The notes under the pieces: generated by a model | Database searches by the model: none | The model's input: the letters and a program-made list of their open reading frames with translations, nothing else | Told to the model about the DNA's origin: nothing | Position numbers and translations under genes: made by a program | Assembly (NCBI RefSeq): GCF_003334305.1 | Contig: NZ_QOWS01000044.1 | Source: Escherichia coli | GTDB lineage: Bacteria; Pseudomonadota; Gammaproteobacteria; Enterobacterales; Enterobacteriaceae | Length of the DNA stretch: 8,189 nucleotides | Reading direction: 5' to 3' (one strand) | Shown here: piece after piece, positions 113 to 5,495 of the stretch | Layout of the letters: every line of letters begins with the position of its first letter | Position numbering within the stretch: position 1 is the first letter of the stretch

Positions 113-147
113 GTAGGCAGGATAAGGCGTTCACGCCGCATCCGGCA
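113..147. repeat. REP (repetitive extragenic palindromic) unit
   Basis: Sequence gtaggcaggataaggcgttcacgccgcatccggca; its reverse complement tgccggatgcggcgtgaacgccttatcctgcctac is the canonical E. coli REP palindrome with about one mismatch. Lies in non-coding DNA. Confidence 0.6.
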
Positions 148-390
148 TGAATAAAGCGCACTCAACAATCTGAAACCCGCCGGAACGGTTTATTACGTAC
201 ATCAGGTGAAACTGACCGATAAGCCGCTTTCTTTTGGGTATAGCGTCGTGGACAGTCATTCATCTTTCTGCCCCTCCAAAAGCAAAAACCCGCCGAAGCG
301 GTTTTTTACGTAAACCAGGTGAAACTGACCGATAAGCCGCTTTCTTTTGGGTATAGCGTCGTGGACAGTCATTCATCTTTCCGCTCCTCC

Positions 391-420
391 AAAAGCAAAA
401 ACCCGCCGAAGCGGGTTTTT
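391..420 (-). terminator. Intrinsic terminator of rnpB
   Basis: On the minus strand, just 3' of the mature rnpB end: stem CCCGC / GCGGG with a UUCG tetraloop (plus-strand 402-415), followed by a U-run (plus-strand A-run 391-401). Confidence 0.75.
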
Positions 421-429
421 ACGTAAATC

Positions 430-806
<377 letters not shown>

Positions 807-813
807 GGCGCGC

Positions 814-842
814 AGTATAGAGGGTTTGCGCGCCCTTGTCAC
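814..842 (-). promoter_or_regulatory. rnpB sigma70 promoter (-35 GTGACA at 837-842, 17-bp spacer, -10 TATACT at 814-819, start near 806)
   Basis: On the minus strand: GTGACA, a 17-nt spacer, TATACT, then 7 nt to the M1 RNA 5' end. The -35 hexamer overlaps the garK stop codon (839-841). Confidence 0.6.
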
Positions 843-1984
843 CCCGCGTTGCGCATTCCAATCGCCAGTGTCGCGGCGATATTACGTGAAGCACGGCAGA
901 TATTGTCATAAGCCCCGCGGAATGCTTCGTCCAACGTACCTATGCTGGTCAATACGCTGAAGACCGCATCGATGCCATGCTGATGTACAACGCCAACATC
1001 ATCGGTCAGGCTACCCGCAATGCCAATCACCGGTTTATGGTACTTCTTCGCCACGTTTGCAACGCCAATCGGTACCTTGCCGTGAATACTCTGGCTGTCA
1101 ATACGCCCTTCACCGGTGATCACCAGCGTACAATCGTGAATATGTTCCTCCAGATTCAGCGCCGTAGTGACGATTTCAATACCACTTTTCAGTTCCGCAC
1201 CAAGAAACGCCATCAGCGCCGCACCCATACCGCCCGCAGCTCCTGCGCCGGGGACATCTTTCACATCAACATGCAGCGCTTTTTTAATGACATCGGCATA
1301 GTGAGAGAGGTTATTGTCCAGCTCAACAATCATCGCTTCACTGGCTCCCTTTTGTGGGCCAAAGATGCGCGATGCGCCGTTATCGCCCACCAGCGGATTG
1401 GTGACATCACAAGCGACGCGAATGACGCAATCTTTTAAGCGCGGATCGAGGCCGGAAATATCAATATCATTCAGAGTATTAAGACTACCGCCGCCAAAAC
1501 CAATTTCATTGCCGTTGGCGTCGCATAATTTCGCCCCCAGCGCCTGTACCATGCCTGCGCCGCCATCATTTGTAGCGCTACCGCCAATGCCGATAATAAT
1601 GTTTGTCGCGCCGCTCTCCAGCGCCTGCAGGATTAACTCGCCTGTGCCGCGTGAAGTGGTCACGAGTGGATCGCGTTTTTCCGCAGGTACCAGCTCCAGC
1701 CCACTGGCCGCCGCCATTTCAATAAACGCGGTTTTGCCATCGCCGGAGATCCCCCAACTGGCATTCACTTTCTCGCCCAGCGGCCCTGTAACCCAGGCGT
1801 GACGTTCAGAACCCTGGGTGGCTGCAATCATCGCTTCCACCGTTCCTTCGCCACCGTCGGCAACCGGAATAGAAACGTACTGTGCATCAGGAAAAATTTC
1901 CCGAAATCCTTTTTCTATCGCCTGCGCAACCTCGCTGGCAGATAAACTTTCTTTATAAGAGTCTGGGGCGATTACGATTTTCAT
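839..1984 (-). CDS. garK: Glycerate kinase (glycerate 2-kinase), 381 aa
   Basis: The ORF track gives 839..2065, but the conserved N-terminus MKIVIAPDSYKESLSA begins at the internal ATG (complement of 1982-1984). That gives 381 aa, the expected size. Glycerate kinase family motifs (GGEGT, GxGGSATNDGG) are present. It is last in the gar operon order. Confidence 0.9.
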   Translation of the reverse strand: MKIVIAPDSYKESLSASEVAQAIEKGFREIFPDAQYVSIPVADGGEGTVEAMIAATQGSERHAWVTGPLGEKVNASWGISGDGKTAFIEMAAASGLELVPAEKRDPLVTTSRGTGELILQALESGATNIIIGIGGSATNDGGAGMVQALGAKLCDANGNEIGFGGGSLNTLNDIDISGLDPRLKDCVIRVACDVTNPLVGDNGASRIFGPQKGASEAMIVELDNNLSHYADVIKKALHVDVKDVPGAGAAGGMGAALMAFLGAELKSGIEIVTTALNLEEHIHDCTLVITGEGRIDSQSIHGKVPIGVANVAKKYHKPVIGIAGSLTDDVGVVHQHGIDAVFSVLTSIGTLDEAFRGAYDNICRASRNIAATLAIGMRNAG

Positions 1985-2080
1985 ACCTATGCCTGTTACC
2001 ACATGACGCCGGAGGGCGTTTCTCTTATTCGGCCTGGATTCCAGGCCCGGATTGCAATACGCCATCCGGGCACGACGTCA

Positions 2081-2965
2081 TTAACGAGTAACTTCGACTT
2101 TCGCCAGTTTTTCGTAGTAGCACGCCAGGGCGCTATGATCCGCCGTTCCTAAACCATCTGCTCGCAGTGCCTGCATCATCTCCATAACCGCAGCTGTGAG
2201 CGGCAGTTGCGCGCCGACGCCGTGGGAAGTATCCAGCGCATTTGCCAGATCCTTAATATGCAGATCAATACGGAAGCCCGGCTTGAAGTTGCGGTCCATC
2301 ACCATCGGCGCTTTGGCATCCAGCACGGTACTGCCCGCCAGTCCACCGCGAATTGCCTGATACACCAGGTCCGGGTTAACGCCCGCTTTGGTTGCCAGCG
2401 TTAGCGCTTCTGACATCGCGGCAATATTCAGCGCCACAATGACCTGATTTGCCAGTTTGGTGACGTTACCTGCACCGATTTCCCCGGTATGCACCACGGA
2501 ACCCGCCATCGCTTTCATCAAATCATAGTATTTGTCGAAAATAGCCTTGTCGCCGCCCACCATCACTGACAGCGTACCGTCGATGGCTTTCGGTTCACCG
2601 CCGCTCACCGGAGCATCCAGCATATCAATGCCTTTCGCTTTCAGCGCTTCGCTGATTTCACGGCTTGCCAGCGGTGCGATAGAACTCATATCGATCAATA
2701 CCGTACCTGGCTTCGCGCCTTCAATGATGCCATTCTCACCCAGCGCCACCTCTTTCACATGAGGGGAGTTTGGCAGCATGGTTATGATGACGTCGCACTG
2801 TTCAGCGATCGCTTTAGCCGTAGACGCTGTTTCTGCACCTGCAGCAATCACGTCAGCAATAGCTTCTGGGTTACGGTCAGCAACCACCAGCGAGTAACCT
2901 GCTTTCAGAAGGTTTTTACTCATTGGTTTACCCATAATCCCCAGGCCAATAAAACCAACTTTCAT
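2081..2965 (-). CDS. garR: Tartronate semialdehyde reductase (2-hydroxy-3-oxopropionate reductase), 294 aa
   Basis: N-terminus MKVGFIGLGIMGKPMSKNL is a Rossmann NAD-binding motif of the 3-hydroxyisobutyrate dehydrogenase family. The ORF track extends to 2980 (MIDMTMKVGF); I chose the MKVGF start to match the known 294-aa protein. Alternative starts are at 2971 and 2980. Confidence 0.88.
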   Translation of the reverse strand: MKVGFIGLGIMGKPMSKNLLKAGYSLVVADRNPEAIADVIAAGAETASTAKAIAEQCDVIITMLPNSPHVKEVALGENGIIEGAKPGTVLIDMSSIAPLASREISEALKAKGIDMLDAPVSGGEPKAIDGTLSVMVGGDKAIFDKYYDLMKAMAGSVVHTGEIGAGNVTKLANQVIVALNIAAMSEALTLATKAGVNPDLVYQAIRGGLAGSTVLDAKAPMVMDRNFKPGFRIDLHIKDLANALDTSHGVGAQLPLTAAVMEMMQALRADGLGTADHSALACYYEKLAKVEVTR

Positions 2966-3000: not shown

Positions 3001-3771
3001 TTATTTTTTAAAGGTATCAGCCAGTTTCTGAGTGGCAGAGCGGAAGACGCCAAGATCGCTGCCGACAGCCACAAACGTCGCGCCCCATTCCAGATAACGA
3101 CGCGCATCGGCTTCGACCGGCGCGAGAATACCGCTGGGTTTGCCGTGCGCACTGGCACGGTTAAAAATGTGCTGAATTGCTTTTTGTACATCCGGGTGCG
3201 AGGCATTGCCGAGATGGCCTAATGCCGCAGCCAGATCGCTGGGGCCGACGAAGATACCGTCTACACCTTCGGTAGCGGCAATGGCATCGACGTTATCTAC
3301 GCCCTGCTGACTTTCTATCTGGACCAGAATGGTGATGTTCTTGTTCGACTGAGCGAAATAATCCGCCACGGTGCCAAACATATTGGCGCGGTGAGAAACG
3401 GAGACGCCGCGAATGCCTTCCGGTGGGTAACGGGTTGATGCCACCGCCTGCTCTGCTTCCTCTTTTGTTTCTACAAAAGGAATCAGGAAGTTATAGAAAC
3501 CGATATCCAGAAGACGCTTAATAATTACCGGCTCGTTGGTCGGCACTCGCACTACTGGCGCGCTGGCGCTGCCTTTCAGGGCCATTAACTGCGGAATAAA
3601 CGTGGAGATATCGTTTGGCGCATGTTCGCCATCCAGCACCAGCCAGTCAAACCCAGCCAAACCAAGAACTTCAGTGCTAATCGGGTTAGAGAGTGCTGAC
3701 CAGCAACCAATTTGTACCTGTTTCGCAGCCAGTGCGGCTTTGAATTTATTCGGGAAAACATCGTTATTCAT
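3001..3771 (-). CDS. garL: 5-keto-4-deoxy-D-glucarate (2-dehydro-3-deoxyglucarate) aldolase, 256 aa
   Basis: 256-aa ORF starting [24 protein letters not shown], of the HpcH/HpaI aldolase family. AAGG Shine-Dalgarno about 9 nt upstream. Sits 15 bp downstream of the garP stop. Confidence 0.92.
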
Positions 3772-3786
3772 CGCTTATACCTTTGC

Positions 3787-5121
3787 TTATTTCTGCAATT
3801 CCATACGTTTAATGTCGCCAACTACGAAGAGGTAGCAGACCATCGCCATCAGCGCTGAACATCCCACGAAAACCAGTGCTGCATTGAAGGAGTGCAGTTC
3901 ACTTACCAGGTAGCCAATCACCAGTGGAGTGACAATGGAGGCAACATTGCCAAAGACGTTAAAGACGCCGCCACAGAGGCCAACAATCTCTTTCGGCGCG
4001 GTGTCAGAAATCACCGGCCAGCCCAGAGCACCAAATCCTTTGCCAAAAAAAGCCAGCGCCATCAGCATGACCACCAGCGTGGTGTTGTTGGTGTAGTTAC
4101 ATAAGATGATGGTGGAAGCCAGCAACATTCCCAGCACAATCGGTAGCTTACGTGCCAGGGTCAGGGATAAACCGCGTTTGATCAGATAATCCGAGAAGAC
4201 ACCTCCCAGCACGCCGCCCGCAAAACCACACAGTGCCGGAATCGAGGCGACCAGACCCACTTTCAGAATCGACATGCCTTTTTCCTGCACCAGATAAATC
4301 GGGAACCAGGTGAGGAAGAACCAGGTGATGGTGTTGATAAAATATTGTCCGAAAAATACGCCCAACATCATGCGGTTAGAGAGCAATTGCTTGATGTAAT
4401 GCAGTTTGGGACCGCTTGCTGCCGCGCTGCCCGGCTTTTTGTGGTCCATATCGACCACCGCGCCATTTTCAGAGATAAACTTCAGCTCTTCCGCAGACAT
4501 ACGTGGGTGATCTGTCGGGTTATGAATCAATTTGATCCACAGCGCCGTCAGCACAAAACCAATCACCCCCATAACGGTAAAGACGTGCTCCCAGCCCCAG
4601 GCGAAAGTCAGCCAGCCAAGCAGAGGCGAAAAGAGCGCCAGCGAGAAATATTGCGCCGAGTTAAAGATGGCGGAGGCAGTACCACGTTCTTTCGTCGGGA
4701 ACCAGGCGGCGACAATACGGGCGTTCGCCGGGAATGATGGCGCTTCCGAGAAGCCGAGCATAAAGCGCATAAAGAACATGGAGATCCCTGCCCAGGCCAG
4801 CGGGAACATATCAACAAAGCCTTGCAGGAAAGTGAATAGCGACCAGAAAAAGAGGCTATAGGTATAAACTTTTTTCGAGCCAAACTTATCAAGCAGCCAG
4901 CCGCCGGGGATTTGCATCAGCAAGTAGGCCCAGCCAAAAGCAGAAAAGATGTAACCCATCGAAACCGCACTTAACTGCAACTCTTTTGCCACTTCGGTAC
5001 CAGCAATAGACAGCGTTGCACGATCGGCGTAGTTAACGGCGGTAACAATAAAAATAATCAGTAATATTAAATAGCGGGTATGCACGCCTTTCTTTTTTTC
5101 GTCAACGGTGTCCAGAATCAT
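3787..5121 (-). CDS. garP: Galactarate/glucarate/glycerate transporter, MFS superfamily, 444 aa
   Basis: 444-aa ORF, highly hydrophobic with multiple predicted transmembrane helices typical of an MFS anion:cation symporter. GAGG Shine-Dalgarno about 7 nt upstream of the ATG. First gene of the minus-strand operon. Confidence 0.92.
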   Translation of the reverse strand: MILDTVDEKKKGVHTRYLILLIIFIVTAVNYADRATLSIAGTEVAKELQLSAVSMGYIFSAFGWAYLLMQIPGGWLLDKFGSKKVYTYSLFFWSLFTFLQGFVDMFPLAWAGISMFFMRFMLGFSEAPSFPANARIVAAWFPTKERGTASAIFNSAQYFSLALFSPLLGWLTFAWGWEHVFTVMGVIGFVLTALWIKLIHNPTDHPRMSAEELKFISENGAVVDMDHKKPGSAAASGPKLHYIKQLLSNRMMLGVFFGQYFINTITWFFLTWFPIYLVQEKGMSILKVGLVASIPALCGFAGGVLGGVFSDYLIKRGLSLTLARKLPIVLGMLLASTIILCNYTNNTTLVVMLMALAFFGKGFGALGWPVISDTAPKEIVGLCGGVFNVFGNVASIVTPLVIGYLVSELHSFNAALVFVGCSALMAMVCYLFVVGDIKRMELQK

Positions 5122-5495
5122 TTTATTTACCTCGGGTACTTATGCTGATTTTTATTATTATGGAGAAGGTGTTATTTATGAGTTTCATTTATGCCGTAAC
5201 GGCAATGAACTCGGGAATTAGTATAAGCAGCGCGAGAATAATAATCATTGTGCAAATGCTAATTTAATTAATACTATTTAAATATTATTTTGAGCATATG
5301 CACATAAGGTTGCGCGCTAAAGCACAGATTTGCGCTTTACCTTGCCGGGCGGCACTGCAATCCCTGAAATGATTGACATTGATCACATTTCTGCGTTTAA
5401 ACTCCTGACATTCTTATTTCACCCAATGAAGTCATTTATTTTTAAATGAGACCAGGTCCTCATTTTAATAACCCCTGGCTGGAGAATATTGCACA
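5122..5495. promoter_or_regulatory. Divergent garP / garD intergenic control region (AT-rich)
   Basis: 374-bp non-coding spacer between divergent starts. It holds a very AT-rich tract (about 5240-5300), a TTGACA at 5373-5378, and several palindromes. The gar genes are known to be controlled by the CdaR (SdaR) activator, but I cannot place its sites with certainty. Confidence 0.6.

What the first reader, a model, noticed from the sequence alone, without database searches (positions are those of the whole stretch)
2003..2070. Cluster of three stem-loops in the 96-bp garR-garK intergenic spacer
Seen directly: acgcc-ggag-ggcgt (2006-2019); ggcctgga-t-tccaggcc (2030-2046); gcccgga ... tccgggc (2044-2050 and 2064-2070). 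The last two overlap and so are mutually exclusive. The other intergenic gaps in the operon are short (garP-garL 15 bp, garL-garR about 35 bp), so this one is unusually long and structured. It may act as an internal attenuator, an RNase processing or stability element, or a REP-like remnant that sets garK expression apart from the upstream genes.
Basis: seen in the sequence. Interest (0 to 1): 0.3.

Follow-up and report, generated by a model that had tools for sequence, protein, structure and literature searches.

The report
Decayed REP pair between garR and garK
The three stem-loops between the E. coli garR and garK genes are the worn-down remains of two back-to-back copies of a common bacterial repeat (REP), an ordinary kind of element, sitting where related bacteria have a terminator-like hairpin instead.

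Summary
The stems are real: 2006-2010/2015-2019, 2031-2038/2040-2047 and 2045-2052/2064-2071. The 96-nt spacer RNA folds at -37.6 kcal/mol, z = -2.1.

They are not three independent hairpins. They are two REP palindromic units, head to head with a 3-nt linker, i.e. a BIME-like doublet. In Pseudocitrobacter, Lelliottia, Kluyvera and other genera the orthologous spacer reads GCCCGGTGGCGC..ACCGGGCCTAC-ATT-GTAGGCCGGATAAG..ATCCGGC. Its first unit belongs to a dispersed family (136 copies in 120 metagenome loci, none beside garR).

In E. coli both GTAG heads have become CCAG, which creates the perfect central hairpin. The copy is unique in the genome and present in 5425 of 5426 genomes. The predicted RNA ensemble favours one long hairpin over three small ones.

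Of 81 Enterobacteriaceae spacers, 48 instead carry a GC hairpin, in 39 of them followed by a T tract (terminator-like).

Identity as a REP relic is about 0.9. My preferred function, a 3'-exonuclease barrier or weak attenuator that sets garK apart, is inferred only (about 0.4). No transcript-end data for the gar genes were found. Known kind, low interest.

The parts
2004..2080 (-). Whole element: a 77-nt imperfect inverted repeat (REP doublet) that starts at the first base after the garR stop codon.
   Evidence: The MFE of the spacer RNA pairs 2076-2080 with 2004-2008 and 2059-2069 with 2009-2019, capped by the central hairpin. It aligns in register with REP doublets of 22 other species.
2041..2072 (+). 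REP-1, a palindromic unit read head-first on the + strand: CCAGGCCCGGATTGCAATACGCCATCCGGGCA. It is z1-like and its head is CCAG instead of GTAG.
   Evidence: Orthologues read GTAGGCCCGGTAAGCNNAGCGCCACCGGGCA, a dispersed family with 136 copies in 120 metagenome loci. Alignment to that unit gives 25 of 31 identities, and 0 of 2000 shuffles score as well.
2038..2040 (.). 3-nt head-to-head linker (AAU in the transcript).
   Evidence: 104 canonical head-to-head pairs in metagenome loci have linkers of 5-35 nt.
2007..2037 (-). REP-2, a palindromic unit read head-first on the - strand: CCAGGCCGAATAAGAGAAACGCCCTCCGGCG. It is a short y-like unit. Its head is CCAG and its own stem has decayed.
   Evidence: Orthologues read GTAGGCCGGATAAGTGAAACGCCATCCGGCG, 2 substitutions from the canonical GTAGGCCGGATAAGCGAAGCGCCATCCGGC. 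By my count from these sequences, the E. coli copy matches that unit at 24 of 31 positions without gaps. Against an E. coli y unit it gives 24 of 35 identities, p = 0.005.
2045..2071 (-). SL1, the own stem-loop of REP-1 (8 bp + 2 bp; -17.2 kcal/mol alone). The stem starts 9 nt after the garR stop codon.
   Evidence: Six of its pairs are invariant or nearly so in 23 species. It is the one piece kept in all 33 type B spacers, including the truncated ones.
2031..2047 (-). Central hairpin GGCCUGGA-A-UCCAGGCC, formed by the two mutated heads and their first stem bases. It contains two CCWGG (Dcm) sites.
   Evidence: 8 nt, 100% complementary. Pair probability is 0.94-1.0. It is the only helix with changes on both sides, TAC/GTA to TGG/CCA.
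2006..2019 (-). SL3, a small hairpin ACGCC-CUCC-GGCGU (-6.3 kcal/mol) built from the tail of REP-2. It is an alternative to the long-range helix.
   Evidence: 92% of cells are paired in 23 species, with no change on both sides.
1991..1997 (-). AACAGGC, the putative garK ribosome-binding region. It lies outside the repeat.
   Evidence: Six of the seven bases (all but the C at position 86) are invariant in 23 type B spacers (positions A84 A85 A87 G88 G89 C90). The motif is also present in many type A spacers.
2081..2965 (-). garR (tartronate semialdehyde reductase), the upstream cistron.
839..1984 (-). garK (glycerate 2-kinase), the downstream cistron.

Best explanation
The spacer holds a relic BIME-like REP doublet: two REP palindromic units in inverse orientation, head to head, separated by 3 nt. 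It descends from canonical GTAG-bearing units that are still intact at the same place in other Enterobacteriaceae. In the Escherichia lineage both GTAG heads became CCAG. This should make the element unrecognisable to the REP transposase, and it turned the head-linker-head junction into a perfect 8-bp palindrome.

The element is transcribed as part of the garPLRK mRNA. There it is predicted to fold mainly into one long, stable hairpin (about -31 to -38 kcal/mol) that begins right after the garR stop codon. The three small hairpins are a minority or co-transcriptional form.

Inferred mechanism, not shown: like the studied intercistronic REPs (malE-malF, REP325 in yjdMN), the hairpin blocks 3'-to-5' exonucleases. 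The garPLR part of the message would then outlast the garK part, possibly with weak attenuation of read-through, so that garK is expressed below the upstream genes. In 48 of 81 related species a GC hairpin, usually terminator-like, occupies the same slot. This suggests that a hairpin at the 3' end of garR is the retained feature and that the REP doublet is a non-homologous substitute.

Separate likelihoods: identity as a REP doublet relic about 0.9; exonuclease-barrier or attenuator function about 0.4.
For: Identity:
- 33 of 81 garR-garK spacers are type B and align in register with the E. coli spacer.
- In 12 of them the first unit is GTAGGCCCGGTAAGC..AGCGCCACCGGGC. In at least 9 the second starts with the 14-nt canonical y head GTAGGCCGGATAAG, as at malE-malF in MG1655.
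It usually sits head to head with a y-like unit.

Structure:
- MFE -37.6 kcal/mol, z = -2.13.
- Long helix probability about 0.75 and central hairpin about 1.0, against SL1 0.24 and SL3 0.19.
- 86-91% of cells are paired in 23 species under each model, against 27-46% when slid.

Constraint and fixation:
- Spacer identity to E. coli is 0.65-0.79 in other genera, against 0.40-0.63 at fourfold sites of garR and garK.
- The spacer is present in 5425 of 5426 E. coli genomes, at 99% identity or more in 5353.

Slot argument:
- All 81 spacers have a hairpin of -9 to -30 kcal/mol starting 0-13 nt after the garR stop codon.
- 39 of 48 type A spacers, but only 1 of 33 type B spacers, have a stem plus T tract.

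Mechanism by analogy:
- REP and other stem-loops protect 3' ends from PNPase and RNase II (PMC6061677).
- REP325 both stabilises the upstream yjdM and attenuates transcription into yjdN (bioRxiv 10.64898/2026.03.23.713779).
- GTAG is indispensable for TnpA_REP (PMC8266576).
Against: - No experimental transcript data for the gar operon were found. Two Term-seq papers hold nothing for gar genes in the text available.
- garR and garK mRNA and ribosome footprints changed in parallel in one data set (PMC9045200).
- There is no U tract after any stem on the sense strand and no rut-like C>G region downstream, so termination is not supported by sequence.
- Covariation is weak. Most stem pairs never vary, and the both-sided changes sit in one helix and may be one or a few events.
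- The central hairpin is imperfect in E. albertii and in locus L003, which is labelled E. coli.
- Enterobacter species have lost most of REP-2, so the full doublet is dispensable.
- The Escherichia spacers lie in a locally conserved patch, so their 93-98% identity may reflect recent ancestry rather than constraint.
- The 2026 preprint itself reports that REP effects depend on context and do not uniformly change half-lives.
Confidence: 0.6

Rival explanations
1. Neutral relic. The REP doublet inserted, or arrived by recombination, in an ancestor, lost its GTAG heads and can no longer move. It persists because it does no harm. The stems are leftover palindromes with no role in gar expression.
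For: - Both heads are mutated, and the own stem of REP-2 has decayed to 4 contiguous pairs.
- The central hairpin is imperfect in E. albertii and in L003.
- Enterobacter lineages have deleted most of REP-2 without replacing it.
- One E. coli strain carries ISEc35 inside the spacer.
- garR and garK mRNA respond in parallel.
- Covariation is weak.
Against: - The spacer is better conserved than fourfold sites across genera: 0.65-0.79 against 0.40-0.63.
- The REP-1 stem is invariant in all 33 type B spacers.
- Every one of the 81 species keeps a strong hairpin within 13 nt of the garR stop codon, whichever type it has.
- It is fixed in 5425 of 5426 E. coli genomes.
Confidence: 0.35
2. Regulator of translation termination of garR. 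A stable REP hairpin closer than 16 nt to a stop codon stalls the terminating ribosome. This triggers mRNA cleavage and trans-translation and so lowers the yield of the upstream protein. This is the Liang, Rudd and Deutscher 2015 model, as summarised in PMC12306157.
For: The REP-1 stem starts 9 nt after the garR UAA, and the long helix starts at the first nucleotide after it. The 9-nt distance is kept in the 23 aligned full-length type B spacers. Type A hairpins start within 0-13 nt of the stop codon as well.
Against: The effect was shown for canonical REPs at a few genes, and nothing was measured for garR. garR ribosome footprints per mRNA were unremarkable in PMC9045200, at -1.2. Proximity to the stop codon is also what a simple 3'-end hairpin or terminator would show. 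This reading does not exclude the best explanation.
Confidence: 0.15
3. Transcription attenuator or insulator. The element lowers RNA polymerase read-through from the inducible gar promoter into garK and the essential rnpB gene 32 nt beyond it. It would be the functional heir of the intrinsic terminator found in type A species.
For: - 39 of 48 type A spacers have a stem plus T tract at the same place.
- garK-rnpB adjacency is conserved in 10 of 10 genera sampled.
- BIMEs and REP325 can attenuate transcription in a partly Rho-dependent way.
Against: The E. coli sense strand has no U tract after any stem. C/G is at most 1.1 within the element and 0.5-0.8 in the first 250 nt of garK, so no rut-like region follows. 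garK translation starts 20 nt after the element, which would shield the RNA from Rho. garR and garK mRNA change in parallel.
Confidence: 0.15
4. The spacer is coding (an N-terminal extension of GarK from the ATG at 2063-2065), or it encodes an antisense RNA that ends at the terminator-like site on the + strand.
For: ORF 839-2065 is open through the spacer. The + strand has GACGCCGGAGGGCGTT followed by TCTCTTATTC.
Against: The ATG is absent in most relatives (GCCCGGTGGCG), and spacer lengths of 94-104 nt do not keep the frame. No promoter-like site lies on either strand in 1700-2400. No Rfam family reaches threshold there.
Confidence: 0.02

Closest known systems
REP / palindromic units (y, z1, z2) and BIMEs of E. 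coli and other Enterobacteriaceae
   Same: Two roughly 31-nt GC-rich imperfect palindromes in inverse orientation, head to head, lying outside genes between two tandem genes. They descend from units carrying the GTAG head and the GCCGGAT/ATCCGGC or GCCCGGT/ACCGGGC stems.
   Different: In E. coli both GTAG heads are CCAG, and the AA/GC bulge is lost in REP-1. The own stem of REP-2 has decayed. The copy has no close relative elsewhere in the genome. The linker is 3 nt, against 5-35 nt in 104 canonical pairs.
REPIN (REP doublet forming one long hairpin; Bertels and Rainey 2011, cited from my own knowledge)
   Same: The two inverted units are predicted to pair with each other into a single long hairpin.
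   Different: REPINs are multi-copy units that replicate. This doublet was found only at garR-garK: no second copy turned up in about 1 Mb of enterobacterial metagenome loci or in the E. coli genomes.
Intercistronic REP stabilisers and attenuators (malE-malF; REP325 between yjdM and yjdN)
   Same: Same position (between two cistrons of one operon, close to the upstream stop codon) and the same kind of stable hairpin without a U tract.
   Different: Those are canonical, experimentally tested REPs. Here the units are degenerate and nothing has been measured.
Intrinsic terminator or attenuator hairpin in the orthologous spacer of Klebsiella, the Citrobacter freundii group, Kosakonia, Cedecea and others (type A)
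   Same: Same slot, a similar distance from the garR stop codon, and similar hairpin stability.
   Different: The sequences are not homologous. Type A has a T tract (39 of 48) and type B does not (1 of 33).

Membership tests
REP / palindromic unit (E. coli group 2 REPtron type) | Imperfect GC-rich palindrome of about 29-37 nt able to form a stem-loop. | tested here: met
   REP-1 has an 8-bp + 2-bp stem, -17.2 kcal/mol. REP-2 keeps only GCCG/CGGC plus scattered pairs in E. coli, but 90% of cells are paired across 23 species.
REP / palindromic unit (E. coli group 2 REPtron type) | Conserved GTAG tetranucleotide immediately 5' of the palindrome, essential for TnpA_REP binding and cleavage (PMC8266576). 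| tested here: not met
   Both heads read CCAG in the window (2041-2044 on the + strand, 2037-2034 on the - strand). GTAG is present in the orthologous units of Pseudocitrobacter, Lelliottia, Kluyvera and others.
REP / palindromic unit (E. coli group 2 REPtron type) | AA/GC mismatch bulge in the stem (PMC8266576). | tested here: inconclusive
   REP-2 keeps GAAUAAG, with the AA. REP-1 has GGAUUGC with no AA. The orthologues have GGTAAGC / GCGCC.
REP / palindromic unit (E. coli group 2 REPtron type) | Many dispersed copies in the same genome. | tested here: not met
   The E. coli sequence has one place per genome at E <= 10. That threshold would miss matches shorter than about 22 nt. The orthologous unit of relatives is highly repeated: 136 copies in 120 loci.
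REP / palindromic unit (E. coli group 2 REPtron type) | Sequence descent from canonical units. | tested here: met
   In-register alignment with GTAG-bearing doublets at the same locus. Direct alignment to canonical units gives 25 of 31 identities (0 of 2000 shuffles as good) and 24 of 35 (p = 0.005).
BIME | Two REPs in inverse orientation separated by a variable linker, often of two different unit types. | tested here: met
   The pair is head to head, and the two units are of different types (GCCCGGT.. versus GCCGGAT..). The linker is 3 nt, shorter than all 104 canonical pairs measured, which span 5-35 nt.
REPIN | The doublet itself is the repeated, mobile unit. | tested here: not met
   No other copy of this doublet was found in E. 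coli genomes. No pair with a 3-nt linker was found in about 1 Mb of metagenome loci. The single near-match to the REP-2 unit there is an ordinary canonical unit.
Intrinsic (Rho-independent) terminator | GC-rich stem-loop followed directly by a U tract on the transcribed strand. | tested here: not met
   There is no such site on the - strand in 1700-2400. Only 1 of 33 type B spacers has one, against 39 of 48 type A spacers.
Rho-dependent attenuator (BIME or REP325 type) | C-rich, G-poor, untranslated RNA downstream for Rho loading; sensitivity to bicyclomycin. | tested here: not met
   C/G is at most 1.12 in the element and 0.5-0.8 in the first 250 nt of garK. The garK start codon is 20 nt after the element. 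Bicyclomycin sensitivity cannot be tested here.
REP mRNA stabiliser (malE-malF type) | Decay intermediates ending at the hairpin; shorter upstream mRNA half-life when the REP is deleted. | not testable with these tools
   No 3'-end or half-life data for gar genes were found.
Translation-regulating REP (Liang et al. 2015, as summarised in PMC12306157) | [quoted passage not shown] | tested here: met
   There are 9 nt between the garR UAA and the REP-1 stem. The effect on GarR yield cannot be tested here.

The most novel reading that the evidence does not exclude
A mobile REP doublet was domesticated as a non-homologous replacement for an ancestral intrinsic attenuator at the 3' end of garR. That attenuator would limit read-through from the inducible gar promoter into garK and the essential rnpB gene just beyond it. 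The doublet was then locked in place by converting both GTAG heads into CCWGG (Dcm) sites. The same GTAGG-to-CCAGG change recurs in other lineages and in unrelated REPs, which hints at a general route, mutational (for example VSP repair) or selective, by which REPs are immobilised.
Probability: 0.15. Interest if true: 0.45.

Novelty: new member of a known kind. Interest (0 to 1): 0.2.

Why it matters
It matters little on its own, because REP/BIME elements and their roles within operons are well known.

The locus is nevertheless a clean natural comparison. The same gene junction carries either a terminator-like hairpin or a REP doublet across 81 species, and the doublet occurs in states running from intact to truncated. 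That makes it a convenient place to test two things: whether REPs substitute functionally for terminators or attenuators, and how REPs decay once their GTAG heads are lost.

It is also a reminder that degenerate REPs escape annotation. The RefSeq copy of MG1655 used here lists no REP features at all, not even at malE-malF.

Tried and rejected
- Rfam. No family reaches threshold in 1700-2400. The only listed match is a chance hit to mascRNA (16.5 bits against a gathering score of 42.5, E = 2) that simply tracks the hairpins.
- MG1655 annotation. No REP feature is listed at garR-garK. However, the same record copy lists none at malE-malF either, so this absence is uninformative and I did not use it.
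- Multi-copy test in E. coli by BLAST. One place per genome, so the E. coli sequence itself is not a repeat at that sensitivity.
- Promoter in the spacer. None found.
- Coding extension of garK from the ATG at 2063-2065. Rejected, because neither the ATG nor the frame is conserved.
- rut-like C>G region downstream. Not found.
- SD sequestration by the outer helix of the MFE (GUGCC with GGCAU). Not conserved in relatives, where only 3 bp remain, so I dropped it.
- Literature and supplement searches for gar-operon 3' ends or REP lists naming garR or garK. Nothing found. Liang et al. 2015 is not held.
- Covariation as proof of RNA structure. Too little variation. The three local hairpins, the long hairpin and the own stem of REP-2 are all 86-91% paired, as expected for any inverted pair of palindromes, so the counts cannot choose between conformations.

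Full report
WHAT IS THERE

The window is the E. coli garPLRK / garD / prlF-yhaV region. A 281-nt piece around the finding matches all 5426 complete E. coli genomes, under the annotations garR and garK, and MG1655 shows the same gene order. garK is 839-1984 on the minus strand, and the garR stop codon is 2081-2083. The spacer is 1985-2080, 96 nt.

The last two share GCC and exclude each other, as stated. The other gaps in the operon are 15 and 35 nt, as stated.

IS IT MORE THAN CHANCE?

Moderately so on energy alone. The sense-strand spacer folds at -37.6 kcal/mol, z = -2.13, and 2.6% of 500 dinucleotide shuffles are as stable. With flanks the figures are -40.9 kcal/mol and z = -2.26.

The predicted ensemble does not favour three separate hairpins. 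The central hairpin is essentially always formed (p = 0.94-1.0). The 5' half of the first palindrome pairs with the 3' half of the third region (2059-2069 with 2009-2019, p about 0.75), and the helix is extended by 2076-2080 with 2004-2008. The object is therefore one 77-nt imperfect inverted repeat that starts at the first base after the garR stop codon.

WHAT IT IS

I fetched the garR-garK junction from 80 other Enterobacteriaceae species. garR sits directly upstream of garK in all of them. The spacers fall into two unrelated types.

Type B (33 spacers including the window: Escherichia, Pseudocitrobacter, Lelliottia, Kluyvera, the Citrobacter amalonaticus group, Salmonella arizonae, Trabulsiella, Superficieibacter and several Enterobacter) aligns in register with the E. 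coli spacer. In its best-preserved members it reads GCCCGGTGGCGCTTAGCTTACCGGGCCTAC-ATT-GTAGGCCGGATAAGTGAAACGCCATCCGGCG. This is two REP palindromic units, head to head.

The second unit begins with the same 14 nt (GTAGGCCGGATAAG) as the canonical y units of MG1655 at malE-malF and lamB-malM. It is two substitutions away from a canonical short unit, GTAGGCCGGATAAGCGAAGCGCCATCCGGC.

The first unit, GTAGGCCCGGTAAGCNNNGCGCCACCGGGC, is a high-copy dispersed repeat. None is next to a garR homologue. Most sit head to head with a y-like unit, which is the BIME arrangement.

The E. coli units are degenerate versions. They give 25 of 31 and 24 of 35 identities to canonical units (0 of 2000 shuffles as good, and p = 0.005). 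Both GTAG heads are replaced by CCAG. The perfect central hairpin GGCCTGGA-A-TCCAGGCC is thus the mutated head-linker-head junction, CCTAC-ATT-GTAGG in relatives.

The E. coli sequence is unique in its genome at BLAST sensitivity and is present in 5425 of 5426 genomes, at 99% identity or more in 5353. The single exception carries an ISEc35 insertion in the loop of REP-1.

The 3-nt linker is shorter than any of 104 canonical head-to-head pairs measured, which span 5-35 nt. No second copy of the doublet was found, so it is not a REPIN-like replicating unit.

THE OTHER SPACER TYPE

Type A (48 spacers: Klebsiella, Raoultella, the Citrobacter freundii group, Leclercia, Kosakonia, Phytobacter, Atlantibacter, Cedecea, Buttiauxella, Siccibacter, Mangrovibacter and others) has a GC hairpin GGGCGCG-n-CGCGCCC instead. 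In 39 of 48 it is followed by a T tract on the sense strand, against 1 of 33 for type B (tool; my scan).

Type A is the only type seen in several genera that I take, from general taxonomy, to branch early (Cedecea, Buttiauxella, Siccibacter, Mangrovibacter). The garR tree is too crude to confirm that placement. On this basis type A is probably ancestral. The two types are interleaved in that neighbour-joining tree, and no spacer has both. This implies repeated replacement or recombination. garK itself is mosaic among Escherichia species.

Whatever the type, every one of the 81 spacers has a hairpin of -9 to -30 kcal/mol that starts 0-13 nt after the garR stop codon. Both types have a median folding z of about -2.

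CONSERVATION AND COVARIATION

On 23 full-length type B spacers, 91% of cells pair under the three-hairpin model, 86% under the long-hairpin model and 90% for the own stem of REP-2. The figures are 19-46% when the partners are slid.

Most pairs never vary. The only helix with changes on both sides is the central one (AU to GC in 8 sequences, CG to GC in 6). This is the TAC/GTA to TGG/CCA change and may represent only a few events. RNAalifold keeps SL1 and SL3 as the consensus. The counts cannot choose among conformations, because any inverted pair of palindromes satisfies all of them.

Spacer identity to E. coli is 0.65-0.79 in other genera, against 0.40-0.63 at fourfold-degenerate sites of the two flanking genes. 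This is consistent with constraint. Within Escherichia, however, the whole junction is locally conserved, so the 93-98% identity there proves little. The central hairpin is imperfect in E. albertii and in L003. Several Enterobacter species have deleted most of REP-2 while keeping REP-1.

HOW IT MOST LIKELY WORKS

Shown:
- The element is a relic REP doublet, and it lies within the garPLRK transcription unit (the operon is listed as such in PMC9045200).
- It has no promoter-like site.
- It has no stem plus U tract on the sense strand.
- No C-rich, G-poor stretch follows it.
- Its first stem is 9 nt from the garR stop codon.

Established elsewhere:
- GTAG is indispensable for the REP transposase (PMC8266576), so the E. 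coli copy should be immobile.
- REPs and other stem-loops define and protect mRNA 3' ends against PNPase and RNase II (PMC6061677).
- REP325 both stabilises the upstream cistron and partly attenuates transcription into the downstream one (bioRxiv 10.64898/2026.03.23.713779).
- REPs within 15 nt of a stop codon can stall terminating ribosomes (Liang et al. 2015, as summarised in PMC12306157).

Inferred: in the gar mRNA the hairpin acts chiefly as a 3'-exonuclease barrier. The garPLR segment would then outlast garK, possibly with a weak effect on read-through or on garR termination. I put this at about 0.4, a neutral relic at about 0.35, and the translation-termination and attenuator readings at about 0.15 each. 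These readings are not mutually exclusive.

The only expression data I found show garR and garK mRNA changing in parallel, -2.9 and -2.6 fold. That does not support uncoupling, but those are fold changes in a ribosomal mutant, not absolute levels. No 3'-end data for the gar genes were found.

COMPARISON WITH THE KNOWN, AND NOVELTY

The element works like, and descends from, REP/BIME elements. As it stands in E. coli it fails two defining tests of a functional REP: the GTAG head and multi-copy status. It should therefore be filed as a degenerate, immobilised BIME-like relic rather than as a canonical REP.

It is a new member of a known kind at most. I could not check whether EcoCyc already lists it, because the MG1655 record copy available here carries no REP features even at malE-malF.

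Two mildly interesting points remain. First, two non-homologous hairpin elements alternate at one conserved slot, upstream of the conserved garK-rnpB pair. Second, the GTAGG-to-CCAGG change recurs. It is seen on single heads in other lineages. It is also the only repeated non-canonical head among 92 unrelated y-type units: 88 CCTAC, 3 CCTGG and 1 CCTGC (small numbers, and two of the three come from one locus). It creates Dcm sites.

Interest: 0.2.

Noticed in passing
window 430-806 (-); loci L008, L024, L035, L044, L048, L054, L064, L071, L076, L081 at about 3679-4104: rnpB (RNase P RNA, RF00010, 318.6 bits) lies 32 nt after the garK stop codon on the same strand. The same adjacency holds in 10 of 10 genera sampled, of both spacer types, so the rnpB promoter must lie inside the 3' end of garK.
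   Followed up: partly
window 173-452: A 113-bp tandem repeat, 2.5 copies, 94% matches. It lies just downstream of rnpB in its direction of transcription and overlaps the 3' end of rnpB. Each unit carries a terminator-like hairpin AAACCCGCCGAAGCGGGTTTTTT.
   Followed up: partly
window 113-147 (+): A canonical y-type REP unit, GTAGGCAGGATAAGGCGTTCACGCCGCATCCGGCA. MG1655 has an additional z1 unit beside it (L001 about 3722-3751) that this window lacks.
   Followed up: no
window 839-1984 versus L002-L006: garK is mosaic among Escherichia species. The first ~270 nt are mostly 90-100% identical to the window (down to 81% in one E. albertii segment), while most of the rest is 79-90%. garR is 81-100%. 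This suggests recombination inside garK. No locus closer than 94% amino-acid identity was returned from the species-representative genome set.
   Followed up: partly
L203 (NZ_CM176349.1, strain CAVP773) 3157-4241; corresponds to window about 2055/2056: An IS5-like ISEc35 element is inserted in the garR-garK spacer, in the loop of REP-1. This is the only one of 5426 genomes in which the spacer is interrupted.
   Followed up: partly
L022, L030, L036-L040, L044, L046, L053, L056, L057 spacers (about 2366-2500): Kosakonia and Phytobacter type A spacers carry an extra 40-60-nt insert with its own hairpin (for example CTTCAGGCCGCAGTGGGCCTGAAG) between the terminator-like hairpin and the garK ribosome-binding region.
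   Followed up: no
window 2031-2047; alignment A1 columns 36-48; metagenome loci L105, L116: GTAGG-to-CCAGG (a Dcm CCWGG site) is a recurrent change of REP heads. It affects both heads in E. coli and one head in Enterobacter, C. amalonaticus and Trabulsiella. Among 92 unrelated y-type units, 3 of the 4 non-canonical heads carry it.
   Followed up: partly
L155 1858-2794: Five copies of the GTAGGCCCGGTAAGC..GCGCCACCGGGC unit in a periodic array with about 150/300-nt spacing, on a 650-kb metagenome contig.
   Followed up: no
window 2005-2030 (+): A terminator-like site on the antisense (+) strand: GACGCCGGAGGGCGTT followed by TCTCTTATTC. No promoter-like site was found on either strand in 1700-2400, so it is probably a by-product of the palindrome.
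   Followed up: partly
L082 (MG1655 4240001-4290000) and L001: The RefSeq MG1655 record as held lists no REP or repeat_region features, not even at malE-malF where canonical y and z2 units are plainly present (L082 about 5134-5218). Absence of a REP annotation in this collection therefore carries no information.
   Followed up: yes
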